Below are positions 1,977 to 59,780 of a stretch of 64,000 nucleotides of DNA, one piece after another. The stretch lies in NCBI GenBank assembly GCA_000092065.1, contig CP000597.1; one strand, 5' to 3'. Every line of letters starts with the position of its first letter. The stretch's first letter is position 1. The stretch is from Ostreococcus lucimarinus (taxonomy: Eukaryota). The position numbers and the translations under genes were made by a program. The notes beneath the pieces were generated by a model. It ran no database searches and was not told the origin of the DNA. It was given only the letters and a program-made list of their open reading frames with translations.

Positions 1977-2886
1977 GGGACGCGCGCGCGCGTCGCCGTC
2001 CGTCGCGCGCGCGCATCCCTCGACGCGCGCGACGACGGCCGACGCCCGACGCGCGCGCGCGCGTCGCTTGACGGAAACGACCGCGCCGACGGAAACGACG
2101 CTTCGTTCGAATTCAAACGCGCACGCGCGCCGCGCGCGCGCGACGTCGAGATTTTTCCTCGAGTGCGGACCCGCGGCGCGAAAAAAGCGCGACGCGCGGG
2201 AACCGCGGCGAAAAAGATTAATTTCCGCGTCAGCACCCGCGGCGACCCCGCGCGCGCGGCGCGCGCCCGCGATCGCGACGTTTTTCGTATATAGATGCAT
2301 CACGGGGTTCAATGCGTACACGCGCGTGGGTAAATATGTCGACACGCGTGTCGCCGCGATCGCGGGCGCGCGCCGCGCGGCGAAAATTTATCGCATTTAT
2401 CGCTCGCGCGCGGAGTCACGACTCGCCGACGCGCGAATCCCGCGAAATCCCGCGCGGGGGTGGATAATATCTTCCCGTAGTGCGTCGCGTCGATCGCCCA
2501 TGAGGGCTGTGAAAAAAACCCGCGCGCGAGATTTCGATTTTCACGAACGGTTCATGGTGTTCGTGCGCGCGCGAATGCGTGATCGCCGCGCGTCCGGCGT
2601 GGGTTCGGACGTTCGGGCGATACGAACGGACGTCCGGCGCGTGGCCCGGAGACGACGCCCGACGCGCGCGTGCGCCCGGCGCGCGTTACGCGGGGCGCGC
2701 GCGCGCGGCCGCACACGCGCGCGCACGCCGGGCGCACGCGAGCGACGCGCGCGGTTCGCGGTCGATCGATTCGAACGTCGCTCGATCGATCGACGCGCGC
2801 GCGAGACGCCGACCCGCGACGCCGACCCGACCCGCGACGTCGTTGTTAACGTCGCCGCGATCGATCGGCGTCGCGCGACGCGGGCG

Positions 2887-6808: not shown

Positions 6809-6913
6809 CAAAAAAAATAAAAAAAATAATACCCGACCCCTGAGGGGTCACCTCAGATTTCGCGAGGGGTCGGCACTCGTCGCGAGGGGTCACTCGCACC
6901 GAATGTCCGAACC
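6809..6913 (+). promoter_or_regulatory. Intergenic block between TRAPPC5 and the hydrolase gene. It has an A-run (6809-6830), a CCCC-TGA-GGGG hairpin, three copies of GAGGGGTC (6842, 6865, 6885) and one copy of the recurrent motif CCGAATGTCCGAAC (6899-6913), about 280 bp upstream of ATG 7195
   Basis: direct reading; the motif recurs at 51717, 56041 and 58426. Confidence 0.45.
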
Positions 6914-47934: not shown

Positions 47935-48651
47935 CTAACGCGACGCCCCGAAGCCGCCGCGCGCCGCGTCGTCGGCGTCGTCCGCCGTCAACTGTCCCGG
48001 CAGCCGCGCGCACCCCGGATTAAATATCGAGTACGCGCTCGCCTCGCCCGGTCGTCGCCGCCCTAAATTCCCGCACACGAGCGCGAATCCCGTGAGCAGC
48101 ACGAACGGCGGTCCCGCGTCGATCGCCGCCGCGCACCGCGCGCACGCCGCCCAGCACGCGACGCGAAGCGCCGGAAATCGCGCGACGACGTTCGCCGTCC
48201 ACCGCGCCGTCCCGAGCCTCTCCCGCATGAACGTCTCCGCGCGCTTTCGCGTCCCCGTCAACGGTACTACTAAATCGTCGTCCTCGTCCTCGCGCTCGTC
48301 CTCGCGCTCGCGCGTCGTTCGTCGTCGCGCTTCCTCGCTCGCGCCGTCGTCCCGCCTTCGCGTCGTCGTCGCCGTCACCGTCGCCCCGTCCTCGATCCCG
48401 ATCGCCTCGACCGTCGCGTTCGACGTCGCGCTCAGCGCGCGTCCCTCGTGCTCGAACGCGACGTCCGCCGTCGTCGCGCCCGGCGCGCACCGCGCGAGCA
48501 TCGCGTCGACGAGTTCGCGCTCGCGCGCGTCCGAACGCGTCTCCACGCGCGTCGCGACGACGTCGTCGACGAGCGTCCCGCGCGACGTCGCGCGCACCGT
48601 CACGCGCACGCGTCGACGCGAATGTTCGTCTCCCGCGATCGCGCGCGCCAT
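47935..48651 (-). CDS. hypothetical protein with a ubiquitin-like domain followed by hydrophobic (TM-like) segments
   Basis: VRVTVRATSRGTLVDDVVATRVETRSD...EAIGIEDGATVTA has a ubiquitin-fold-like pattern, then ...FPALRVACWAACARCAAAIDAGPPFVLLTGFALVCGNLG. Assignment tentative. Confidence 0.4.
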   Translation of the reverse strand: MARAIAGDEHSRRRVRVTVRATSRGTLVDDVVATRVETRSDARERELVDAMLARCAPGATTADVAFEHEGRALSATSNATVEAIGIEDGATVTATTTRRRDDGASEEARRRTTREREDEREDEDDDLVVPLTGTRKRAETFMRERLGTARWTANVVARFPALRVACWAACARCAAAIDAGPPFVLLTGFALVCGNLGRRRPGEASAYSIFNPGCARLPGQLTADDADDAARGGFGASR

Positions 48652-48850
48652 CGCGTCGTCGACGAGTGCCGCGGCGTCGTCGGCGGACGCGCGCGCGGAT
48701 TCGATGTCGCCGCACTCGTCGCCGCGCGATCTCGACGATCGCGGGCGTCGTCGGACGACGCGCGCGCCGCACGCGCCGCGCGCGCCGCGCTCTTCGCGCG
48801 CGCGTCGCGTCGAACGATCGGTCGAGCGGGGACGAGACGCGCGACGCGAA

Positions 48851-48877
48851 TCTGAATTCTGAATTCTGAATTCTGAA
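48851..48877. repeat. (TCTGAAT)4 heptamer microsatellite in the divergent promoter between 47935..48651 (-) and 48896..50515 (+)
   Basis: direct reading. Confidence 0.9.
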
Positions 48878-48895
48878 TCCGCGGCGATTCGGACG

Positions 48896-50515
48896 ATGCG
48901 CGAGCGACGGCTGGGGACGAGCGATGGGACGACGACGCGCGAGGACTTTGGGGCGGATCGATTGCTGATCGACGTGGCGAATTACGTCGTCGGGTACGAG
49001 ATCAAGTCGAGGGACGCGGTGAAGACGGCGAGGCACGCGATAATGGATTTCGTCGCGTGCGCGCTGCGGGGAGGAAGCGATCCGGGGTGCGCGAAATTAC
49101 TCGGACCGTGCGTGCCGGGAATCGAGTGCAAGCACGGAGCGCACGTGCCGGGGACGGAGTATTATCTCGATCCCGTGACGGCGACGTTTAACGCGACGAC
49201 GTGCGCGCGGTGGTTGGATTACAACGATTCGTTTTACGGCGCGGAGTGGGCGCATCCGAGCGACACGATTGGGGCGATTTTGAGCGTCAGCGAGTACGTC
49301 AGTCGATTGAGGAACGATCGCGGGCTGAGCGTGCTGAGCATGCGAGACGTCATCGTGGCGACGATCAAGGCGTACGAAATCGTCGGCGTGCTCGCGCTCG
49401 AGAACTCGTTCAATCAGATTGGCGTCGATCACGGACTGTTGACTCGCGTCGCCGTGGCCGCAGTGACGACGTCCATGCTCGGTGGTGGGCGATTAGAGGT
49501 GATGTACGCCACTTCGCAGGCTTTCATCGACGGCAGCGGTTTGCGATGCTTCCGACATTACCCGTGCGCGGGGACGCGAAAGGGTTGGGCGGCGGGAGAT
49601 AACGCCGCCCGAGGCGTCACTTTAGCGTTGATGACGATGAGAGGCGAAATAGGATATCTTGGTGCGCTGTCAGCGCCGGTTTGGGGATTCAACGACGTGT
49701 TTTACCGGCGTCAAGACATCGTGCTCAAGCGAGACTTTGGGGAATTCGTCATGGAAAACGTCGTCTTCAAGCCGTCGTTTCCGAGCGAGATTCACGCTCA
49801 AACCGCCATCGAGGCCGCGTTTCGATTGCATCCGCAAGTCGTCCACCGCGTGGACGAGGTTCACAGCGTCGCGGTTCACACCACACGTAGCGCTGTACGA
49901 TGCATCGATAAGACCGGGCCGCTGAACGGGCCCGCGGATCGCGATCACTGCTTGCAGTACGCCGTCGCCGTCGCGCTCCTGTACGGGAATATGACATCAG
50001 ATCATTACGAAGACTCCGTGGCGAGCGACCCGCGAGTGGATGAAATGAGACGCAAAATTCTCATCGCAGAAAATCCACAATACAGCGCCGATTACGTTGA
50101 TCCAGATCGCCGTTCTTGTTCGAATTCGATTCAAGTGCACTTTAAGGATCGCACGAGCACGAACAAGTTTGAGGTCGAGTACCCAGTTGGACATCGTCGC
50201 AGAAGAATGGAGGGGTTTCCAGCGTTAGAAAAGAAGTTCATATCGTCTTTACACACAAAGTTTCCACCGGAGCGTGCGGGATTCATCTTTGAACGAGTCA
50301 CCGACGCGCAAATTTTCGACGCCTTGACACCGATGGACTTCATGGAATTGTTCAACGCCACGCCGCATCCCGTGCTCTTACCGCCGATGCGCGCGGCACC
50401 TGGAGTTTTTGATTACACTCCGATAGATAGTCGAGCGTCGACCCTAGTTCCTCGTCTCACGGATGGTACCGCAGAGACTCGAGCGGTGGGAGACGGCGCA
50501 GACGCGCGCGGTTAG
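48896..50515 (+). CDS. MmgE/PrpD family protein (2-methylcitrate dehydratase / cis-aconitate decarboxylase family)
   Basis: Full-length similarity to PrpD architecture (N-terminal helical domain ...DFVACALRGGSDPG...; C-terminal ...HSVAVHTTRSAV...). 539 aa is typical. Confidence 0.75.
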   Translation: MRERRLGTSDGTTTREDFGADRLLIDVANYVVGYEIKSRDAVKTARHAIMDFVACALRGGSDPGCAKLLGPCVPGIECKHGAHVPGTEYYLDPVTATFNATTCARWLDYNDSFYGAEWAHPSDTIGAILSVSEYVSRLRNDRGLSVLSMRDVIVATIKAYEIVGVLALENSFNQIGVDHGLLTRVAVAAVTTSMLGGGRLEVMYATSQAFIDGSGLRCFRHYPCAGTRKGWAAGDNAARGVTLALMTMRGEIGYLGALSAPVWGFNDVFYRRQDIVLKRDFGEFVMENVVFKPSFPSEIHAQTAIEAAFRLHPQVVHRVDEVHSVAVHTTRSAVRCIDKTGPLNGPADRDHCLQYAVAVALLYGNMTSDHYEDSVASDPRVDEMRRKILIAENPQYSADYVDPDRRSCSNSIQVHFKDRTSTNKFEVEYPVGHRRRRMEGFPALEKKFISSLHTKFPPERAGFIFERVTDAQIFDALTPMDFMELFNATPHPVLLPPMRAAPGVFDYTPIDSRASTLVPRLTDGTAETRAVGDGADARG

Positions 50516-50617
50516 CAACGCTTCGGCGACACCCCTTGTTGTAATGGTAGCATGAAACACGAACGCGAGCCGTCAGCGATTGAGTTTGCGCCAAGCAATC
50601 GAAACGACGCGATTTAG

Positions 50618-50654
50618 TGATGCGATTCAGTGATGCGATTCAGTGATGCGATGG
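50618..50654. repeat. 13-bp tandem repeat (GTGATGCGATTCA)x3 in the 3' region of the PrpD-family gene
   Basis: direct reading. Confidence 0.85.
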
Positions 50655-50788
50655 CTAAAAAACGATGAAGTAATGATCACTTCCGTGACAAGTCAGATAA
50701 CAACTCTGAAGCTCCTCGCTTTTTTCAGCGAGAGCGTAACTACCCTCCGCTAACGGCTAATAGTAATATCGTTCCTTAGGGTAAATAT

Positions 50789-51651
50789 TTACCCTTGGAC
50801 TTGGCGCTGGTCAACGGCGCACGCAGCTTCGGACGCCGGGCGGTGAGCCAAGAACGCGGAGCATTGCACTTGCTTGATGTTGTCGAAGCCAGCGACGCGG
50901 ACGTAGCATTCCGGGAAGCACTTGATGCAGGTGTTGATTTCCGCAATGACTTCATCCGGGTTTTGGCAGCCGTACATGGGGAGCTTCCACATAACCCAGT
51001 AACGGTTGTCGTAGTAACCGGCGTTGATGGAGGTGTCCATGTTCGCCCAGCCGTGGCCGTCGGTGTACGCGTGCGCGGAGTCTTCGAACTCGATGCACGG
51101 GGTCCAGCCGTTGTTCAACAAGTATTGCACTTGCTTGGAGATTTCGGCGTCGGAGAGCGGCGGCAAGAAGGAGAAGGTCTCGAACATCCTGCGTGACGAC
51201 GTAAAAACGAAGCGAAATCGGTCAGTACAGCGCTCGCGCGCGTCGTTCGGACCCTCGTCGGTGACCGAGTTAAAACCCTAAAACCCAATAACCCAGCGCG
51301 CGTTCCTGACCGCACGATCGCCGCCGAACGAGCCCTCGCGCGCACCCCCCACGCCGACCCCTCGCACCGCGATCGCGGGCGTTAAAACGTCGAAGAAGAA
51401 CTTTCTTCAACGAAATATCGCCCTCGCGGCGTCGTCGAGGCGCGCGCGCGCGCGCAGAGGTCGCGCAACGTTCGCGCGATGCGGCGCTATCCTCTCGCGA
51501 AAGATACGCGAAGGTTCGATCGATCGCGCGCGTTCACGTACTTGTTGCCGTGCGGGCGCCAGATCATCATGGACTTGGCGTTGGCGACCTTGCCGGTGGT
51601 GACGGCGACGGTCTTCGCGACTTGCGCGGAAGCTTGGGTGATGGCGGACAT
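50789..51651 (-). CDS. rbcS: RuBisCO small subunit, copy A (exon 1 51542..51651, intron 51189..51541, exon 2 50789..51188)
   Basis: Exon 2 = MFETFSFLPPLSDAEISKQVQYLLNNGWTPCIEFE...YYDNRYWVMWKLPMYGC...VRVAGFDNIKQVQ, canonical rbcS. Exon 1 (MSAITQASAQVAKTVAVTTGKVANAKSMMIWRPHGN) is a transit peptide plus the conserved MxxW...NK motif. GTACGT donor and ...CACGCAG acceptor rejoin ...GNK|MFETF in phase 2. Confidence 0.9.
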
Positions 51652-51716
51652 GATTGCGTGCGTGTGGATTAGTGCGGCGCGCGCGCCGCGCGCGCGCGTC
51701 GGGGCGGCGCGAGGTG

Positions 51717-51731
51717 CCGAATGTCCGAATC
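51717..51731 (+). promoter_or_regulatory. copy of the recurrent motif CCGAATGTCCGAATC, ~185 bp upstream of rbcS copy B ATG, in the shared divergent promoter of rbcS A/B
   Basis: direct reading. The same 13-mer core occurs at 6899, 56041 and 58426, all on the + strand. Confidence 0.4.
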
Positions 51732-51914
51732 ACGATCGCCCGCCCCTTAAAACGTATTCCAATCGTCTCTACAACTATATGATTTCGATTTTGACGGGAT
51801 AATCTCGACGAGATAAATTCGAGCGCGCGTTTTCGCGCGAATCGTGTGGATTTGCTGACTCGGTGCCGATCACGCGAGGGCGTCGGCACTTTCCAGCACG
51901 CTTATCTCGAAATC

Positions 51915-52806
51915 ATGTCCGCCATCACCCAAGCCTCCGCGCAAGTCGCGAAGACCGTCGCCGTCACCACCGGCAAGGTCGCCAACGCCAAGTCCATGAT
52001 GATCTGGCGCCCGCACGGCAACAAGTACGTGAACGCGCGCGCGCGACGGGACGCGAACGTAATCCGAAAAAGCGACGCGCGCGGATTGCTCGGCCGGTCG
52101 TGAAGAAGGGGTCTTCGAGGGGCGCGCGAGGGCGTCGTGACGCGCGCGATGAATGAAAAAGATGCCTGAAGTTTTTATGCATCGGATCGTCAGCGCGCGG
52201 TGGGCGTCGCGCGTCGACGCGAGCGTCGGCACGGGGTTCGAGTGAGCCCCCCCAGGGGGGAGGCCTCCGAGATCCATCGTAACCGCCTTCGGAGATTTCT
52301 TCTTTAATTTTCCTCGCGACGCGTGGTTGCGCGTTGAAATCGACGGAAAACGATGCACAGAATAATTACTGACCCGATTTCGCTTCGTTTTTACGTCGTC
52401 ACGCAGGATGTTCGAGACCTTCTCCTTCTTGCCGCCGCTCTCCGACGCTGAAATCTCCAAGCAAGTGCAATACTTGTTGAACAACGGCTGGACCCCGTGC
52501 ATCGAGTTCGAAGACTCCGCGCACGCGTACACCGACGGCCACGGCTGGGCGAACATGGACACCTCCATCAACGCCGGTTACTACGACAACCGTTACTGGG
52601 TTATGTGGAAGCTCCCCATGTACGGCTGCCAAAACCCGGATGAAGTCATTGCGGAAATCAACACCTGCATCAAGTGCTTCCCGGATTGCTACGTCCGCGT
52701 CGCTGGCTTCGACAACATCAAGCAAGTGCAATGCTCCGCGTTCTTGGCTCACCGCCCGGCGTCCGAAGCTGCGTGCGCCGTTGACCAGCGCCAAGTCCAA
52801 GGGTAA
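51915..52806 (+). CDS. rbcS: RuBisCO small subunit, copy B (exon 1 51915..52024, intron 52025..52406, exon 2 52407..52806)
   Basis: Same exon sequences as copy A (one Glu/Asp difference in exon 2), GTACGT donor, CACGCAG acceptor. Confidence 0.9.
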
Positions 52807-53417
52807 ACGTCTCGACGTTTCCTGCGAACGCCCGCGCGCGTCTGTAGACGCGCGCTGCCGCGGACTCACGCTCGTGTAGAGATGTAGTCCTATTGAATTA
52901 CATACGAAGACTTCACGTCACTTCACGCGTTAACGCTTCGCCCTCGCCCTCGCGCGTCGCGCATCTCCGGACGCTCTCTCTCCCTCTCGCGCGGACCGAC
53001 CGCCGCGCAGCACACCCGGTCGTAACCGTTCCATTTGACCGTTCCAATCCCTTCTCGAACGCGCGCGAAGATTTTCCGAGATCGAGGACTCGCCGCGGTT
53101 CGCGACTCAAGAAATCTAGATCACGCCGTGAGATCTTCGCCCGCCGTCGTTTCCGCCACACGTTTCCGCGCCGCCGGGCGAAAATGAGGCTTTAGGGTTT
53201 ACGCGCGTCGTATGGGCAAACAGTTCGCGAGCACTCTGCGTAGGCCCCCTGAAGGGGGCTTTTTCCTCTATTTTCTTACATACAGCTTACATAATTTATA
53301 ATACAGAGAAGATCCCATATAAAGTACATCACGAATACGAATACGAACGCCCTCACAACCCCCTGACGCGCGCGCCGCCGCGGCCGAGCGACATAATCGC
53401 ACGCGTATCTCGAGATC

Positions 53418-54537
53418 ATGTCTGCCATCACCCAAGCCTCCGCGCAAGTCGCGAAGACCGTCGCCGTCACCACCGGCAAGGTCGCCAACGCCAAGTCCAT
53501 GATGATCTGGCGCCCGCACGGCAACAAGTACGTATAGTTTACGACGTGTTTCGACGCGATCGCGCGCCGCGTCCGATCGCGCCGCATCCGACGCCCCGAG
53601 GGACGATCGTCGTCGTGTTCGCGCGCGTCCGCGCGCGCGTCGCCGACGCGATCGCGGTCGATCTCTTCGATGATTTTCATCGCATCGATCGCGACGCGCG
53701 AAAGCGGCGCGCGCGCAACGTGGACGCGTGCGAACCGTCGATCACGGCGCGGTCGCGGGGTGATCGGATAAGCGCGAAAACCCAAACGCGAAAACCCAAA
53801 CGGGAACCCGAGCGGGAATTTTCGGGTGTTTGCGTCGAACGGCGCGGCGTTCGACGATTTAGCGTGCGCGATGATTTGTGCATCGTCGAGTCGGGCGTCG
53901 AGACGTCGAGACGTCGTCGCCGCGCGCGCGGCGGGGTCGGTCGGCGCGCGGATCATCCGTAGATTATCATCGACCGGACGATCGGCCGTCGACCGACCTT
54001 TGAATGCTCGGCGCGGGAGGGTGTTTCGTACTCGGGTCGGACGCGGTCCACGAGCGACGTCACGGTTGGGCGAGCGTAGAAGACTCGCGCGAGCGCTGTA
54101 CTGACCGATTTCGCTTCGTTTTTACGTCGTCACGCAGGATGTTCGAGACCTTCTCCTTCTTGCCGCCGCTCTCCGACGCCGAAATCTCCAAGCAAGTGCA
54201 ATACTTGTTGAACAACGGCTGGACCCCGTGCATCGAGTTCGAAGACTCCGCGCACGCGTACACCGACGGCCACGGCTGGGCGAACATGGACACCTCCATC
54301 AACGCCGGTTACTACGACAACCGTTACTGGGTTATGTGGAAGCTCCCCATGTACGGCTGCCAAAACCCGGATGAAGTCATTGCGGAAATCAACACCTGCA
54401 TCAAGTGCTTCCCGGATTGCTACGTCCGCGTCGCTGGCTTCGACAACATCAAGCAAGTGCAATGCTCCGCGTTCTTGGCTCACCGCCCGGCGTCCGAAGC
54501 TGCGTGCGCCGTTGACCAGCGCCAAGTCCAAGGGTAA
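53418..54537 (+). CDS. rbcS: RuBisCO small subunit, copy C (exon 1 53418..53527, intron 53528..54137, exon 2 54138..54537)
   Basis: Exons identical to copy B apart from a synonymous change in codon 2. The intron is 610 nt and unrelated in sequence except for the last ~40 nt. Confidence 0.9.
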
Positions 54538-54695
54538 ACGTCTCGACGTTTCCTGCGAACGCCCGCGCAAGTCGACTCAACTCAGTATTATGAAGATTTT
54601 TTCCATTTGATTTACGTAGGAAATTGCTTTGTCTGTCATAATGAGATGCATACTTACATATTAAAATGTCCCCGAATTTCTCGACGCGACTCGGA

Positions 54696-55997
54696 TCAGC
54701 GAAGCTCGCCGAGCGCCGCACGCGAGAAGACTGCCCGTGTGCTCTCGTCGCCCGCGCATACCTCTGACGAACTCGAGTCGTCGGAATTTTTGCTGAAGTC
54801 TAATGGTAATGTCAGTTCTAAGTGTCTCTTCGCGCCTGAGTATTTGAATTTGAAATCAAACGTGCGTCGAGAACGTTCACGAAGCTCGCGCTTGCCCACG
54901 ACGGCGGCGCTCGGCGGCGTCCCGGTGGTTACGACCCAACTCCGCGCTCGCTCGACGTCTCGGAGCTGCATCGTCGCCAACTCGTCCTGGCTTAAAGGCT
55001 GAGCTGTGATGGGTTTATGATTCAACCAAACGTTCACGAGGAACGTCACGCGCTTAGACGACTGCGGCGTACCGCGCGCGAACTCACTCGGGGCGCCGTG
55101 CAAGAACCGTCCGTCAAATGTGATTTGCTTCCCCCACTTTGGCCACGAAACGACGCACTCGGTGATATCACCGCACACCCCGACGTCGCCGTTTTCGTAA
55201 TCACAATTCACCTTCGTCGGACGGTTCACGACCACCGTCGGCGTCCCTCCGTCGCAAAAGTACGTCACCGTGCCGAGTTGCGGATGCGCGTTGACGCCCG
55301 CGCCCTCGAGGGCGTAGTCTTTGTCCCAGTGCCACCCGATCTCATCACCCTCATCGATGACTTGCGTCCACCACTCGGCGCCCGATTTCGAGGGATCATA
55401 CCTCGCTCTCTCGTCTTCGTCGCGCGCGCCGGCGTCTCGTTCCGCGCGCGCCGCGGCTTCGCGCGTCGCCCTTCGAAACGTCTCTCGCGCTAAATACTCG
55501 AGCGCGCACCTCGGTTCGCTCTCGGCGTTCACCCAAAACGTCCTCCCACTCGACGTCCCGCTCGTCCTTCTCTTCCCTCTCGCATTTTTCGCCGTGTGCG
55601 CCGCCTCGCAATCCTTCGTCAACCGCCTCGCGTCGTCGTCGTCGAGCGCGTCTCGCCCCGCGAACGTCGTCGCGCTCGTCGTCTCGTACGTCAGGTATCG
55701 GTTCACTTCGCACGCGATTCGTCCGAGTTCATCCACCGCGAGTTCGAGCTCGGACGTCGCGCTCGCGTCGTCGTCGCTCTCGTCGCTCTCGTCGCTCTCG
55801 CTCTCGCTCTCGCTCTCGCTCGTCGTCGCCTCGCGCGCGTCGTTCGCGCGCCTCGTCCGTCGCGTCGTCATCCGCGCCTCGTCGTCGCGTCGTCGACGTC
55901 GCGCGTTCGCCGCCCCGCGTCGCGCGCGCCGGTCGCCCGACGCGCGACGGGCGTCGCGCGTTCGCCGCGTCGACGGCCGCCGGGCTCGAGCGCGCAA
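54696..55997 (-). CDS. hypothetical protein with a 2OG-Fe(II) oxygenase/cupin-like motif pattern (GWHWDKDY ... RFLHG ... R..F.VNVW) and an N-terminal (SE)n/(SDE)n acidic repeat
   Basis: 1.3 kb codon-biased ORF. HxD...H...R spacing read directly; family not assigned. Confidence 0.5.
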   Translation of the reverse strand: MRARARRPSTRRTRDARRASGDRRARRGAANARRRRRDDEARMTTRRTRRANDAREATTSESESESESDESDESDDDASATSELELAVDELGRIACEVNRYLTYETTSATTFAGRDALDDDDARRLTKDCEAAHTAKNARGKRRTSGTSSGRTFWVNAESEPRCALEYLARETFRRATREAAARAERDAGARDEDERARYDPSKSGAEWWTQVIDEGDEIGWHWDKDYALEGAGVNAHPQLGTVTYFCDGGTPTVVVNRPTKVNCDYENGDVGVCGDITECVVSWPKWGKQITFDGRFLHGAPSEFARGTPQSSKRVTFLVNVWLNHKPITAQPLSQDELATMQLRDVERARSWVVTTGTPPSAAVVGKRELRERSRRTFDFKFKYSGAKRHLELTLPLDFSKNSDDSSSSEVCAGDESTRAVFSRAALGELR

Positions 55998-56061
55998 GCG
56001 GACCCGAATACCACTAAAGCGTAGCGCTGTATACTCATACCCGAATGTCCGAACATCCGCG
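55993..56061 (+). repeat. ~70-bp dispersed repeat, copy 1 (ends with CCGAATGTCCGAACATCCGCG), ~240 bp upstream of the PiT gene ATG
   Basis: About 90% identical to 58377..58447: GCAAGCGGACCC(G/A)AATACCACTAAAGC(G/A)TAG..CT.TATACTCATA(C/T)CCGAATGTCCGAACATCCGCG. Confidence 0.8.
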
Positions 56062-56302
56062 TGAAAGTGCTACACTTTGTCAGGAAAATGTCGATTCACA
56101 GTCGATTCACAGTTGATGAACATTGCAACAAGTTGCAAAAATCGAGTTCGATTGGAACCAATCGCGTCTTCTTTCGAGGTTCACGAACCGTGAATTCGTT
56201 CCGCGAGGAATATTCTCGGAATCTCGCCTTTTCAAATTCCCGCGTGGGAATATGCGCAGTCGCCGCAAGAACACGTCGCGCGCCGTCTCGTCACGCACAA
56301 CG

Positions 56303-58052
56303 ATGAGCTCTTCGGATGCGCTCGCTCAAGCGTCCCGCCACCTTTTGGCCGGCGCTACTGAAACCAAGAGATTCGAATGGATCGTCGTTTGCGGCGGTTT
56401 CCTCGCCTTCTTCGCCGCCTTTGGCATCGGTACGCACACGATGCGCGCACTTTTTACCTTTCGCGTTCATAGGCTTTAATGACACGGCTTGGTCGCACAC
56501 GTGCGATTGGAGTGTATTAGAAGCATCACTGACGTCGTGCGATCAATCGTATTTACCTACAGGTGCCAACGACGTCGCGAATGCGTTCGCCACCTCTGTC
56601 GGGTCCGGCGCGTTGACCATTAAAAACGCTGTAGTCCTCGCCGCGATCTTTGAATTCTGTGGTGCCATGTTCATGGGCGGTCACGTCGTCAACACAATTC
56701 GCAAGGGCATTGCTAACCAGAAATGCTTCGCCGGTACCGGTGGTGCCAACGATCCCGGCCTCTTGATGTACGGCTGCCTATGCGTCATTTTTGCCGTCGC
56801 CATCTGGCTCGTCGTCGCATCTGCCTTCGAAATGGCCGTCTCCACGACGCACTCGTGCGTTGGTGGTATGATTGGAATGACTTTGGTCGCGCGTGGTAGC
56901 GAGTGTGTCATTTGGACCAAGAAAGCGGACGAATTCCCGTACGTCAAAGGCGTCGTCGCCGTCATCATCTCCTGGCTCTTGTCCCCGGTCATCTCTGGCG
57001 CCTTTGCGTTCGTCTTCTTCGTGACCCTGCGTACTCTCGTCATGCGTTCCGAACATTCTTATTCTCGTACTGCCGTCGCGTTCCCAGTGTTGCTTGCGTG
57101 CACTCTCATCATCAACATCTTCTTCATCGTGTACAAGGGCGCCAAGTTCCTTGAGCTCGACGACACACCGGTCGGTACGGCGTGCGCCATCGCGTTCGGC
57201 ATCGGCGGAGGATGTGGCATTGTTGCGTACTTCTTCGTTACCCCTTACATCCTCAAGACGACCGATGAGCTCTTCGAGAAGCAACAGCTCGAAAAGGCGG
57301 AGCGTGGTTCGGGCAAGAAGGCCGAAGAGAAGGTCGTCCGTCAACCGCGCGAGTATCCTGTCGGGGTCTTTGGCGCGCCGCGTCGCATGTGGTACGCTCT
57401 GCAAGATCATCTTGAATCTTCACTCACCCACAAGGCTGAAGACATTCTTGACGAAGACATGGCTGTATTGGCGATCCACGAAAACGCCGAAAAGTTTGAC
57501 GAAAAGACTGAACTTTGCATGCGATACTTGCAAATCCTCACCGCGTGCTGCGACTCGTTCGCGCACGGCGCCAACGATGTGGCCAACTCTATCGGTCCCT
57601 TCGCCTCTATGGTAGTCGTCTTCAAGAGCGGTAAAGTTTCGAAGGAAGCTGAAATGGGCGACGATTCATATTGGATTCTCGGTCTTGGCGCTGCCGGCAT
57701 CGTCTGTGGCCTCGCCTTGTACGGCTACAAGATTCTTCACGCTCTCGGTACCAAGATTGCCAAGCTCACCCCGAGTCGCGGTATCTGCATCGAGCTTGGT
57801 GCGGCTTGCGTCATCATCATGGGATCCCGTCTCGGCTGGCCGCTGTCTACCACTCACTGCCAAGTTGGTGCCACCGTCGGCGTCGCCCTACTCGAAGGCC
57901 GCAAGGGCATCAACTGGTTCATCATCGGTAAAACTGTGTTCGGCTGGATCATCACCCTCGTCATCGTCGGCTTCTCCACGGCGGCGTTCTTCGCACAAGG
58001 TGCCTACGCTCCGATGAAGAGCTACCCGTGCTACATCACAGGTAGTTGCTAA
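56303..58052 (+). CDS. PiT-family inorganic phosphate transporter (exon 1 56303..56429, intron 56430..56562, exon 2 56563..58052)
   Basis: Two PiT signature motifs GANDVANAF (at the exon junction) and HGANDVANSIGP, with about 10-12 TM segments. Exon 1 (MSSSDALAQASRHLLAGATETKRFEWIVVCGGFLAFFAAFGIG) lies in a different frame (ORF 56123..56479). GTACGC...CCTACAG intron (133 nt, phase 1) recreates ...AFGIGANDVANAF. Confidence 0.85.
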
Positions 58053-58376
58053 ATGGGCCCTCCTAGCTTACCCCCTCCCTAGGTTACCCCCGACGGAGTT
58101 ATTCTTTGAATACTCTCGGTGTTTTTCCCGCTATTGATAGCGATGAGATTCTCGACAAATTCGCGTTCAGTGGGGTCTGAAAATTTGCCGTCGCCCACGA
58201 GAGCGTCGAATTGCTCCGCCAACGTCCGTCGAATTGCTCCGCCAACGTCAGCGATGGCGCGCCTGTGCGAGAGAATTCAGACTCAACAATACTTCGCGCG
58301 CGCGCTGTTTTGGTTCCAACCGGAGCCGCACGGATCAATTGCACACCGCGTAATCGCCCTGAGTGGTATCGATACC

Positions 58377-58447
58377 ACGCAAGCGGACCCAAATACCACT
58401 AAAGCATAGTACTATATACTCATATCCGAATGTCCGAACATCCGCGC
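58377..58447 (+). repeat. ~70-bp dispersed repeat, copy 2, ~95 bp upstream of ORF 58542
   Basis: see copy 1. Confidence 0.8.
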
Positions 58448-58541
58448 GATTCCCGCCGCGATTCGCCGCGATTCGCCGCGACTCCGCGACGCGCGCGACG
58501 ACGGACGGCGAACGACGCCTCGAGACGACGGCGCGCGCGCG

Positions 58542-59780
58542 ATGGCGACGACGACGACCCCGCGCGTCGCGACGACGGGCGCGCGGGCGGCGCGAGGCCG
58601 ACGCGCGAGGACGGAGGCGACGCGCGCGAACGCGACGGCGACGCGCGCGACGGGACGACGCGCGAACGGGACGGCCGCGAGGGACGCGCGAGCGAAAAGC
58701 GCGGGAAAGGACGACGGCGCGAGCGATCAGGGAGGGTCGAGCGGCGTGGAAAGGGAGACGCGCGCGCGACGGACGCCGAGCGCGCGAGAGAGCGCGATGG
58801 AGGCGGCGGCGGCGCGCGAGGCGGAAAACGCGGGGATGAAGCCGTCGTCGAGCGGGGAGACGGCGACGCGGACGGTGAAGGACGAGGCGCTGGAGATACC
58901 GTTTCAGAGCACGAGTCCGAGGAAACGGGTCGGGCGAACGCGGTTGTTGCGGACGCCCATGGCGGGGGGGGTGGTGAGCCGAGACACCAAGGATAGCAAC
59001 TTGCCCTCGATGGCGACGGCGGCGAGAAACTTGATGGAACTCGCGGATTACGGCGATTTGAGCACGACGATGAGCGACATGCATCATCGTCGCGCTGGGT
59101 ACCCGTTCGGAAGCACGGTGGACTTCGCGACGGACGCCACGGGGCATCCAATCTTTTGCCTGGCGCCGCTCGCGATTCACACGCGCAACATCGCCGCCGA
59201 CGGCAAGTGCTCGTTGACGGTGAAGATGAGCGGTTGGGGCGGGTTGGCGAACGCCAGGGTGACGATATTCGGCGACGTTCAGCGCTTGCCCAACGGAGAG
59301 TATCAAACGGCGGCGAACGAAATCTTCAAGTCCAAGTATCACGCGCGCAAGGAAGCCATCGACATGGAGGATCGCTGGGGCGACTACACGTATTATCGCA
59401 TGAATCGCATCGTCGACGTGTACTTCGTCGGTGGGTTCGGAACGTTGAACTGGATCAAGCTCGACGAGTACTGCTCGACGTCCCCCGACACGATCGTCAC
59501 CGCCGCGCACGGTAAGAGCGTCATCGAAACCTTGGGCGAGCTCAACACGCGCTTCTCCCAGCGTCTCGCCGCGCACATGGGCAATCTCTTGGACCTCGTC
59601 GTGGACGATTTATGGATCATCTCCATCGATCGTCGCGGTATGGACGTTCGCGTGCGCACCGACGGCAGCTCGTTGATTCGCAGAATCTCTTTCGACACCG
59701 ACGTCGAGTGTTTCGACGACGCCAAGCGCGCCGTCGAGTGCGCGTTGACCAACGACGACCTCTGTCGCGGCGAGTTCTGA
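58542..59780 (+). CDS. pyridoxamine 5'-phosphate oxidase-like FMN-binding fold protein with a C-terminal DUF2470-like region (GluTR-binding-protein-like), probably plastid-targeted
   Basis: ...ARNLMELADYGDLSTTMS...GYPFGSTVDFATDATGHPIFCLAPLAIHTRNI...CSLTV... resembles the PNPOx-like split-barrel family. N-terminal ~100 aa Ala/Arg/Thr-rich. Start may be an internal Met. Confidence 0.55.
   Translation: MATTTTPRVATTGARAARGRRARTEATRANATATRATGRRANGTAARDARAKSAGKDDGASDQGGSSGVERETRARRTPSARESAMEAAAAREAENAGMKPSSSGETATRTVKDEALEIPFQSTSPRKRVGRTRLLRTPMAGGVVSRDTKDSNLPSMATAARNLMELADYGDLSTTMSDMHHRRAGYPFGSTVDFATDATGHPIFCLAPLAIHTRNIAADGKCSLTVKMSGWGGLANARVTIFGDVQRLPNGEYQTAANEIFKSKYHARKEAIDMEDRWGDYTYYRMNRIVDVYFVGGFGTLNWIKLDEYCSTSPDTIVTAAHGKSVIETLGELNTRFSQRLAAHMGNLLDLVVDDLWIISIDRRGMDVRVRTDGSSLIRRISFDTDVECFDDAKRAVECALTNDDLCRGEF

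What the first reader, a model, noticed from the sequence alone, without database searches (positions are those of the whole stretch)
55993..58447. Two ~70-bp repeats (~90% identical) bracket the phosphate transporter gene
GCAAGCGGACCC(G/A)AATACCACTAAAGC(G/A)TAG..CT.TATACTCATA(C/T)CCGAATGTCCGAACATCCGCG occurs at 55993-56061 and 58377-58447 in direct orientation. The first lies ~240 bp upstream of the PiT gene and the second ~95 bp upstream of the next gene. Each ends in the recurrent CCGAATGTCCGAAC motif. This could be a modular promoter cassette that has been duplicated (shared regulation of a phosphate-transport gene and its neighbour), the footprint of a segmental duplication, or the ends of a non-autonomous element. 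I see no terminal inverted repeats, no target-site duplication and no transposase ORF.
Basis: seen in the sequence. Interest (0 to 1): 0.6.

Follow-up and report, generated by a model that had tools for sequence, protein, structure and literature searches.

The report
Duplicated promoter piece flanking variable phosphate-transporter gene
The two 72-base repeats are real, but they are neither a mobile element nor a shared phosphate switch: one is part of the neighbouring gene's promoter and the other is a copy left at the edge of a 2.4-kb phosphate-transporter segment that some wild cells of this marine green alga carry and others lack.

Summary
Window 55993-56064 and 58378-58449 are direct repeats, 65/72 identical.

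The repeat (R) is confined to this locus. There is no further copy in the 64-kb window. All 8 true hits in 241 million metagenome records fall at these two positions, and viral contigs gave none. It has no inverted ends and no RNA signal.

The window is from a high-GC marine green alga. Related metagenome contigs show at least four arrangements upstream of an invariant R-CREG-like gene unit:
- H1: gene L, rep1, PiT, a truncated gene X, rep2, CREG (this window).
- H2: gene L, one R, CREG, with no PiT.
- H3: an intact gene X.
- H4: a DDE-transposase-like ORF.

So rep2 is the resident promoter or leader segment. It carries a TATA-like box and a (CCGAAnnn)n motif about 100 nt before the ATG. Rep1 is a derived 72-79-nt copy at the junction between gene L and the PiT segment. 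That junction is also an inversion breakpoint relative to sister lineages.

PiT has its own proximal promoter with two P1BS-like sites, which are conserved upstream of orthologues that lack R.

The most likely origin is repair-associated duplication in a rearrangement hotspot. This is a new instance of a known kind. The ecologically interesting part is the PiT presence/absence polymorphism.

The parts
55993..56064 (+). rep1: the derived copy of R, lying between the upstream region of gene L and the PiT segment. It begins with CGCAAGC, the last 7 nt of the gene-X upstream region that precedes rep2.
   Evidence: It is nearly invariant in 9 contigs.
58378..58449 (+). rep2: the resident copy of R, a promoter or leader segment of the CREG-like gene. 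It is present next to that gene in all four haplotypes.
58413..58419 (+). TATA-like box TATATAC in rep2. Rep1 has TGTATAC at 56028-56034.
   Evidence: Its role as a TATA box is inferred.
58426..58439 (+). CCGAATGTCCGAAC motif, also in rep1 at 56041-56054. The 8-nt unit CCGAATGT varies in number: 1 copy here and in L003, 2 copies in most alleles.
56065..56302 (+). PiT's own proximal promoter and 5' leader. It holds two P1BS-like sites, GAATATTC at 56208-56215 and GAATATGC at 56248-56255.
   Evidence: Only 5 GNATATNC sites occur in the 64 kb, and two are here. The same motif lies upstream of the orthologues in L023 and L024.
56303..58052 (+). PiT/PHO4 phosphate transporter gene. Exons are 56303-56429 and 56563-58052; the intron is 56430-56562.
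   Evidence: (PF01384, E 2.9e-111; intron at the same position in orthologues).
58140..58222 (-). Truncated 5' remnant of gene X, about 28 codons (MAEQFDALVGDGKFSDPTEREFVENLIA). Gene X is complete (225 aa) in haplotype H3.
58223..58377 (.). Upstream region of gene X, shared by H1 and H3 and from 58246 onward by H4. It includes a 23-nt tandem duplication at 58205-58249, and two independent microhomology deletions remove most of it.
54696..55871 (-). Gene L, the left neighbour. It has no Pfam domain. Its 5' side is an inversion breakpoint relative to sister lineages.
58542..59780 (+). Right neighbour: a CREG-beta-barrel/PNPOx-like/DUF2470 protein that sources name 'putative heme iron utilization protein'.

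Best explanation
R is a short promoter or leader segment of the CREG-like gene. It has a TATA-like box followed by a (CCGAAnnn)n motif, roughly 100-130 nt before the ATG. Rep2 is the resident copy. Rep1 is a 72-79-nt duplicate sitting exactly at the junction where the upstream region of gene L was joined to a 2.3-kb segment. That segment carries the phosphate transporter gene with its own P1BS-bearing promoter, plus a stump of gene X. I infer that the duplicate arose during DNA-break repair or a replication template switch in a rearrangement hotspot. It would be either a templated filler copied from 2.3 kb downstream or a local tandem duplication later split by the segment. It did not arise by transposition. 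The result is a 2.39-kb unit (rep1 start to rep2 start) that segregates in wild populations beside alleles lacking PiT and alleles with other gene content. PiT regulation is expected to run through its own proximal P1BS sites. Rep1 at most supplies promoter sequence to gene L or PiT, and may be neutral. Shown: the repeat, its confinement to this locus, the haplotypes, the junctions, and the P1BS sites. Inferred: the direction of copying, the repair mechanism, and promoter activity.
For: The repeat is real and occurs in 5 large contigs. It is confined to this locus: no other copy in the window or in the other loci held. A metagenome scan gave 11 hits, of which 8 map to the two positions here and 3 are unrelated chance matches. 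Viral contigs gave 0 hits. R lies next to the CREG gene in every haplotype: H1 (window, L002, L032-34), H2 empty (L001, L025, L026), H3 with gene X intact (L007, L017) and H4 with a DDE_1 ORF (L035, L036). Rep1 starts with CGCAAGC, which in rep2 is contiguous with the gene-X upstream region. H2 alleles instead have GTGAC before GGACCC, so rep1 was copied from an X-linked R. The junction shows CGC microhomology, and two other microhomology deletions (AGC, CACG) end at the 5' edge of R in L019 and L021. The 5' side of gene L is a synteny breakpoint: sister and more distant relatives have THUMP next to L. The right flanks of all haplotypes intermingle at about 1% diversity, so they are alleles of one population. 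PiT has two of the window's five GNATATNC sites within 100 nt of its ATG, and its orthologues keep such sites without R. No RNA family, tRNA or stable fold was found. Templated insertions and synthesis-dependent microhomology joining are established repair outcomes (background: PMC2943611, PMC7165422).
Against: A 72-79-nt templated filler is long for polymerase-theta-type joins. The order of events among H1-H4 is not resolved. H2 alleles carry an extra 90-125 nt of GC-rich sequence with degenerate partial copies of the 5' end of R. They are therefore neither a clean precursor nor a clean deletion product of H1. Rep1 and rep2 differ by 5 fixed transitions (about 7%) against about 1% allelic diversity. 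This means either an old duplication, copying from an unsampled allele, or fast change in rep2. No transcription data are available, so the promoter function of either copy is unproven. Metagenome contigs can be chimeric, although each haplotype is seen in at least 2 contigs.
Confidence: 0.6

Rival explanations
1. The repeats are recombination sites. The PiT segment would be gained and lost by homologous or site-specific recombination between the two R copies, either as loop-out of a circle or as Campbell-type integration. On this view the empty allele is the recombined product.
For: Empty alleles retain one R between the same outer flanks. The missing interval runs from about the start of rep1 to the start of rep2, which is one repeat period. 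L008 has a rep1-type R joined to the CREG-side flank. L004 has a mosaic R, with a rep2-type 5' part and a duplicated rep1-type 3' part.
Against: The three sampled empty alleles have 90-125 extra nt and a different left junction (GTGAC|GGACCC). Their diagnostic sites do not show the rep1-5'/rep2-3' pattern expected from a single crossover. Rep1 and rep2 keep 5 fixed differences across 9 and about 22 contigs, so there is no homogenisation. There is no recombinase in the window. The segment contains a truncated gene remnant, which is not what an organised cassette looks like. L008 begins inside R, so its left flank is unseen.
Confidence: 0.2
2. R is a modular regulatory cassette kept in two copies by selection so that PiT and the CREG-like gene, and possibly gene L, are co-regulated, for example under phosphate stress.
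For: Both copies have the same orientation relative to the downstream gene. Both carry a TATA-like box and a motif enriched in this genome's intergenic regions. Rep1 is conserved among 9 contigs.
Against: PiT orthologues at 76-77% identity lack R but keep GAATATTC sites close to the ATG. Rep1 is 239 nt from the ATG against 93 nt for rep2, and it has TGTATAC where rep2 has TATATAC. R has no exact GNATATNC site. The conservation of rep1 is no greater than that of its flanks, which are about 98-99% identical.
Confidence: 0.12
3. The repeats are the ends of a mobile element carrying PiT as cargo: a MITE-like or other non-autonomous element, a solo LTR pair, or a virus-derived insertion.
For: A gene is bracketed by direct repeats and has an empty-site allele. 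The segment has lower GC (47-56%) than its flanks (74-78%). A DDE_1 transposase-like ORF occupies the same spot in another haplotype. Prasinoviruses carry PHO4 (PMC3429862).
Against: There are no dispersed copies. There are no inverted ends or target-site duplication. PiT has an intron at the position shared with algal orthologues. It is only about 62-64% identical to viral PHO4, whose cluster includes OlV1_234. No close viral relative was found. The rbcS genes in the same window are equally low in GC. The H4 transposase joins at 58245, not at R.
Confidence: 0.05

Closest known systems
Structural variants bounded by short duplicated sequence that arise from break repair or template switching (synthesis-dependent microhomology-mediated end joining, templated 'filler' insertions; background PMC2943611, PMC7165422)
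   Same: A copy of nearby sequence in direct orientation sits exactly at a rearrangement junction. Microhomology is present at that junction. Other microhomology deletions occur in the same few hundred bases.
   Different: The copied stretch (72-79 nt) is longer than typical templated inserts. The event was not observed, only inferred from alleles.
Non-allelic homologous recombination between flanking direct repeats, giving a presence/absence polymorphism of the intervening gene
   Same: A 2.39-kb unit lies between two direct repeats, and natural alleles exist with a single repeat and no gene.
   Different: The sampled empty alleles are not clean recombinants. They have extra sequence, a different left junction, and site patterns that do not fit a single crossover.
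Hypervariable genome regions of Mamiellophyceae picoalgae (population genomics of Ostreococcus tauri, PMC5498103)
   Same: Several alternative gene contents occur at one locus in wild populations. They include sugar-modifying enzymes (a TylF-type methyltransferase and a putative UDP-glucose dehydrogenase N-terminus), an orphan gene family and a transposase.
   Different: Here the variation is a small site beside housekeeping genes (rbcS, CPOX) in GC-rich sequence. It is not shown to lie on an outlier chromosome.
P1BS/PHR1-PSR1 phosphate-starvation promoters (GNATATNC)
   Same: PiT has two such sites within 100 nt of its ATG, and orthologues have them too.
   Different: The sites lie outside the repeat, so the repeat is not the phosphate-responsive module. 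Binding and induction were not tested.
Green-clade PHO4 of prasinophytes and prasinoviruses (Monier et al. 2012, PMC3429862)
   Same: The gene belongs to the PHO4 family (PF01384) and is about 62-64% identical to the cluster containing Ostreococcus lucimarinus virus 1 OlV1_234.
   Different: This is a host gene with a conserved intron. There is no evidence of recent viral transfer.

Membership tests
MITE / non-autonomous DNA transposon | Terminal inverted repeats at the ends of the unit | tested here: not met
   no inverted repeat pairs the ends of the segment. The repeats are direct.
MITE / non-autonomous DNA transposon | Many dispersed copies in the genome | tested here: not met
   no other copy in the 64-kb window or in the other loci held. 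All 8 true metagenome hits are at these two positions.
MITE / non-autonomous DNA transposon | Short target-site duplication outside the ends | tested here: not met
   the sequences outside rep1 (..GGGCTCGAG) and outside rep2 (CGATTCCCGCC..) are unrelated.
LTR element / solo LTR pair | Long terminal repeats flanking gag-pol or its remnants, present as a multicopy family | tested here: not met
   the interior holds a PHO4 gene and a stump of gene X. The repeat is 72 nt and single-locus.
Integrative element with att sites | Identical core in both flanking repeats and a single core in the empty site | tested here: inconclusive
   the empty site has one R, but with extra sequence and another left junction. 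Rep1 and rep2 differ at 5 fixed sites.
Integrative element with att sites | A recombinase or integrase encoded in or beside the unit | tested here: not met
   none in H1. A DDE_1-like ORF occurs only in another haplotype and joins elsewhere (58245).
Deletion/insertion polymorphism by recombination between direct repeats | Alleles with two repeats plus the insert and alleles with one repeat and the same outer flanks | tested here: met
   H1 in 5 large contigs and H2 in 3 large contigs, with right flanks about 99% identical.
Deletion/insertion polymorphism by recombination between direct repeats | An empty-site repeat that is a simple rep1-5'/rep2-3' chimera with no extra sequence | tested here: not met
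   for L001, L025 and L026. L008 fits the pattern but its left flank is missing.
Eukaryotic core promoter segment | Lies shortly upstream of the start codon, in a constant position relative to the gene across alleles | tested here: met
   rep2 is 93-101 nt before the CREG ATG in about 22 contigs of four haplotypes. An 8-nt copy-number change within it shifts the reading frame, so it is non-coding.
Eukaryotic core promoter segment | Transcription starts within or just downstream | not testable with these tools
   No transcript data are available.
P1BS (PHR1/PSR1) phosphate-responsive promoter | GNATATNC sites close to the start of a phosphate-acquisition gene | tested here: met
   sites at 56208 and 56248 are 2 of only 5 in the 64 kb. 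L023 has three and L024 has one upstream of the orthologue. None lies inside R.
PHO4/PiT phosphate transporter | Pfam PF01384 match across the protein | tested here: met
   E 2.9e-111, profile positions 1-347 of 350.

The most novel reading that the evidence does not exclude
The site just upstream of the fixed R-CREG promoter may be a recurrent exchange point where wild populations of this picoalga carry alternative gene contents. The observed contents are a phosphate transporter, nothing, an orphan gene with sugar-modifying enzymes, and a transposase. If the 5' edge of R acts as a preferred breakpoint, the locus would be a small eukaryotic 'flexible gene island'. Its phosphate-uptake capacity would vary between cells, as in the phosphate islands of marine cyanobacteria.
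Probability: 0.2. Interest if true: 0.65.

Novelty: new member of a known kind. Interest (0 to 1): 0.4.

Why it matters
The repeat itself is an ordinary scar of genome rearrangement. What it marks is more useful: a high-affinity-type phosphate transporter gene that is present in some and absent from other otherwise about 99%-identical genomes of a widespread marine green picoalga. Contigs come from Tara Oceans, coastal and long-read metagenomes. Variable phosphate-acquisition gene content is well known in marine bacteria but poorly documented in eukaryotic phytoplankton. The repeat and its junction sequences give ready PCR and read-mapping markers to score the alleles against phosphate availability.

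Tried and rejected
1. RNA gene: Rfam at E<=1, tRNA search and folding of both strands of both copies gave nothing (z-scores -0.8 to +0.6).
2. Dispersed element: a degenerate 21-mer scan of metagenome and viral collections found only this locus.
3. Recent viral origin of PiT: no close relative in IMG/VR. Identity to the prasinovirus PHO4 cluster is only about 62-64%, and the intron position is conserved.
4. Polarity from outgroups: relatives of gene L (58-79% identity) place THUMP, not CREG or PiT, next to L. They show a breakpoint but not the ancestral state of the R region.
5. Whether the 90-125 extra nt of the empty alleles are ancestral L-upstream sequence: alignment to relatives gave z of only about 2-3 in GC-rich low-complexity sequence, which is inconclusive.
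6. Exact-protein look-ups of the window's own PiT and gene L products failed because the alleles differ by 1-6 residues.
8. Assigning the other CCGAATGTCCGAA sites to gene starts: ORF lists in this GC-rich sequence are too noisy for more than a rough statement.
Full report
OBSERVATION

The two repeats exist as described. Window 55993-56064 and 58378-58449 are direct copies of 72 nt with 65 identical positions and no gaps. Six of the seven differences are transitions in which rep1 has G/C and rep2 has A/T. Rep1 ends 239 nt before the ATG of the phosphate transporter gene. Rep2 ends 93 nt before the ATG of the next gene. Both contain CCGAATGTCCGAAC. The pattern CCGAAnnnCCGAA occurs five times in the window against 0.18 expected.

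SETTING

The window is eukaryotic. It carries three nuclear green-type rbcS copies. The PiT gene has one intron (56430-56562), and GC ranges from 52 to 75%. The organism is a high-GC marine green picoalga that I could not name to species.

PiT (56303-58052) is a PHO4-family protein (PF01384, E 2.9e-111). It is about 62-64% identical to the prasinovirus PHO4 cluster that includes OlV1_234. This is the 'green-clade' PHO4 of Monier et al. 2012 (PMC3429862).

The left neighbour, gene L (54696-55871, minus strand), has no known domain. The right neighbour (58542-59780) is a CREG-beta-barrel/PNPOx-like protein.

The interval from rep1 to rep2 is 47-56% GC between flanks of 74-78% GC. The rbcS genes are equally low, so low GC is not evidence of foreign origin.

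NOT A DISPERSED OR MOBILE REPEAT, NOT AN RNA

No further copy occurs in the window or in the other loci of this species that I fetched. A degenerate 21-mer from the 5' half of R found 11 places in 241 million metagenome records. Eight are this locus, at the rep1 or the rep2 position. Three are unrelated chance matches. Viral contigs gave none. No inverted repeat pairs the ends and there is no target-site duplication. Rfam, tRNA search and folding gave nothing.

THE KEY RESULT: A STRUCTURAL POLYMORPHISM

Exact-protein look-ups of the right neighbour, of gene L relatives and of a longer call of the CREG gene returned contigs from many independent metagenomes. At least four arrangements lie upstream of an invariant R-CREG unit.

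- H1: L, rep1, PiT, a truncated gene X, the X upstream region, rep2, CREG. It is seen in the window and in L002, L032, L033 and L034 (230-362 kb contigs), and in many partial contigs (L005, L012, L016, L018, L020, L037-L041).
- H2: L, then 90-125 nt of GC-rich sequence, one R, CREG, with no PiT. It is seen in L001, L025 and L026 (117-374 kb).
- H3: a complete 225-aa gene X next to the same X upstream region, R and CREG. Different genes lie further left: a putative UDP-glucose dehydrogenase N-terminus in L007 (my reading of a 52-residue fragment, not tested) and a TylF-type methyltransferase in L017.
- H4: a DDE_1 transposase-like ORF joining at window 58245/58246, seen in L035 and L036.

The right-hand flanks of all four types intermingle in a tree at about 1% diversity. 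They are therefore alleles of one recombining population, not paralogues or separate species.

WHICH COPY IS THE ORIGINAL

R is attached to the CREG gene in every haplotype, in about 22 contigs, at 93-101 nt from the ATG. Inside it the 8-nt unit CCGAATGT is present once or twice. This shifts the frame of an upstream ATG relative to the CREG ORF, so R is non-coding promoter or leader sequence. Rep2 has TATATAC at 58413-58419, followed by the motif.

Rep1 begins with CGCAAGC. In rep2 these bases are the last seven of the gene-X upstream region (..ATACCACGCAAGC|GGACCC). The empty alleles instead have ..GCGCTGTGAC|GGACCC. Rep1 was therefore copied from an X-linked R, and its boundaries do not coincide with any functional unit.

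The three junctions in the window are:
- 55996/55997 (GAGCGCGC|AAGCGG, with CGC shared)
- about 56060-56064 (CATCCGCG|TGAAAG)
- 58139/58140, inside gene X

PiT HAS ITS OWN PROMOTER

Only five GNATATNC (P1BS-type) sites occur in the 64 kb. Two of them lie 95 and 55 nt before the PiT ATG (56208 GAATATTC, 56248 GAATATGC). PiT orthologues at 76-77% identity in two related algae (L023, L024) sit in other gene neighbourhoods and lack R. They still have GAATATTC sites close to the ATG and an intron at the same position. The phosphate-responsive part of the PiT promoter is therefore expected inside the segment, not in the repeat. That P1BS is the binding site of PHR1/PSR1-type factors is established knowledge from plants and Chlamydomonas. 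Its use in this alga is inferred.

A REARRANGEMENT HOTSPOT

In a sister lineage (gene L 79% identical, L042) and in more distant relatives (58-59%, L028-L031), gene L is paired head-to-head with a THUMP-domain gene. In this species THUMP lies beyond the rbcS-PrpD-CPOX block. The block is therefore inverted here, and the 5' side of L, exactly where rep1 sits, is a breakpoint.

Several small variants cluster in the same region:
- two different microhomology deletions (AGC; CACG) that end at the 5' edge of R, in L019 and L021
- a deletion of about 160 nt in L005
- a 20-nt internal duplication in L004
- a 23-nt tandem duplication at 58205-58249
- degenerate tandem partial copies of the 5' end of R in the empty alleles

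A relative (L024) carries a gene X homologue 3 kb from its PiT, so the PiT-X linkage may be old.

MECHANISM

The best-supported reading is that rep1 is a by-product of the repair or replication event that joined the L block to the PiT-X-R-CREG region. It would be either a templated filler copied from 2.3 kb downstream or a local duplication later separated. Such outcomes are known from synthesis-dependent microhomology-mediated end joining (PMC2943611, PMC7165422). This step is inferred, not shown.

Two points remain unexplained. A 72-79-nt copy is long for that process. Rep1 and rep2 also differ by five fixed transitions, about 7%, against about 1% allelic diversity. This points to an old event, an unsampled donor allele, or fast change in rep2. 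Notably, the rep2 changes create the TATATA box.

RIVAL: LOSS OR GAIN OF PiT BY RECOMBINATION BETWEEN THE REPEATS

This rival remains possible. The empty alleles lack almost exactly one repeat period. L008 has a rep1-type R on the CREG flank, and L004 is a mosaic. However, the three complete empty alleles carry extra sequence, a different left junction, and site patterns that are not single crossovers. Whether their extra 90-125 nt is ancestral L-upstream sequence could not be decided.

COMPARISON AND VERDICT

The finding resembles known repeat-bounded insertion/deletion polymorphisms and promoter-fragment duplications. It fails every defining test for a MITE, an LTR pair or an att-flanked integrative element. 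It is a new instance of a known kind.

The repeat is duplicated promoter sequence and a rearrangement footprint. It is not a shared phosphate switch and not a mobile element.

The more interesting outcome is the presence/absence polymorphism of a phosphate transporter gene, together with alternative gene contents at one site, in wild populations of a marine picoalga. This parallels hypervariable regions reported for Ostreococcus (PMC5498103). Interest 0.4.

Noticed in passing
window 56208-56215 and 56248-56255; L023 38-154; L024 3699-3706: P1BS-type sites (GAATATTC/GAATATGC) cluster just upstream of PiT and of its orthologues in two related algae. Only 5 GNATATNC sites occur in the whole 64-kb window.
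   Followed up: partly
window 58140-58222 (minus strand); L007 801-1478; L017 1980-2657: A stump of an orphan gene ('gene X', 225 aa, no Pfam domain) lies downstream of PiT and is complete in another haplotype. Its family has many 50-80% identical variants, mostly on short contigs, which looks like a fast-evolving multigene family.
   Followed up: partly
L035 526-1695 (minus strand); L036 1-825: A DDE_1 transposase-like ORF (24.2 bits against a cut-off of 22) sits directly upstream of the R-CREG unit in a fourth haplotype and joins at window 58245/58246. Its other end and any inverted repeats were beyond the contig.
   Followed up: partly
window 58426-58439 and the same place in L002, L004, L005, L007 and L038: The 8-nt unit CCGAATGT inside rep2 varies between one and two copies among alleles. 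L004 has a 20-nt internal duplication and L038 a 9-nt deletion. Two copies put an upstream ATG in frame with the CREG ORF, which explains the 452-aa gene calls.
   Followed up: yes
window 50788-51244 (minus strand), 52367-52837 (plus strand), 54082-54568 (plus strand): Three rbcS copies are more than 99% identical to each other, one inverted relative to the others. The intergenic sequences between them differ among contigs. This suggests concerted evolution and provides possible substrates for inversion.
   Followed up: no
L042 8844-10780; L028 5750-8170; L031 5539-8020, compared with window about 48000-55900: Relatives have THUMP head-to-head with gene L. In this species the block L-rbcS x3-PrpD-SAYSvFN-CPOX is inverted, so THUMP lies at its far end.
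   Followed up: partly
window 55770-55830 (gene L N-terminus): A (GCTCTC)n stretch encoding an SE repeat varies in length among alleles. Gene L products are 391, 394 or 397 aa.
   Followed up: no
L019 about 10335 (minus strand); L021 116-149; L005 about 1634: Three independent small deletions occur between PiT and rep2: window 58206-58383 with AGC microhomology, about 58199-58377 with CACG, and 58112-58272. After the 5' half of R, L021 continues into unrelated sequence. This may be another rearrangement or a chimeric contig.
   Followed up: partly
window 56064-56078 and 58129-58142: Short palindromes lie at or next to two junctions of the PiT segment: AAAGTG-CTA-CACTTT just after rep1, and CGCTAT-TG-ATAGCG spanning the PiT/gene X junction. 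Their significance is unknown.
   Followed up: no
L027 about 1-50 (as fetched): This contig ends in the Nextera adapter sequence CTGTCTCTTATACACATCT... This is adapter contamination in a public assembly.
   Followed up: no
window 6899-6912, 51717-51729, 2603-2616 (minus strand): Further copies of CCGAA(T/C)GTCCGAA lie in GC-rich intergenic stretches, roughly 270-300 nt before candidate start codons in the same orientation. This may be a general promoter motif of this alga.
   Followed up: partly
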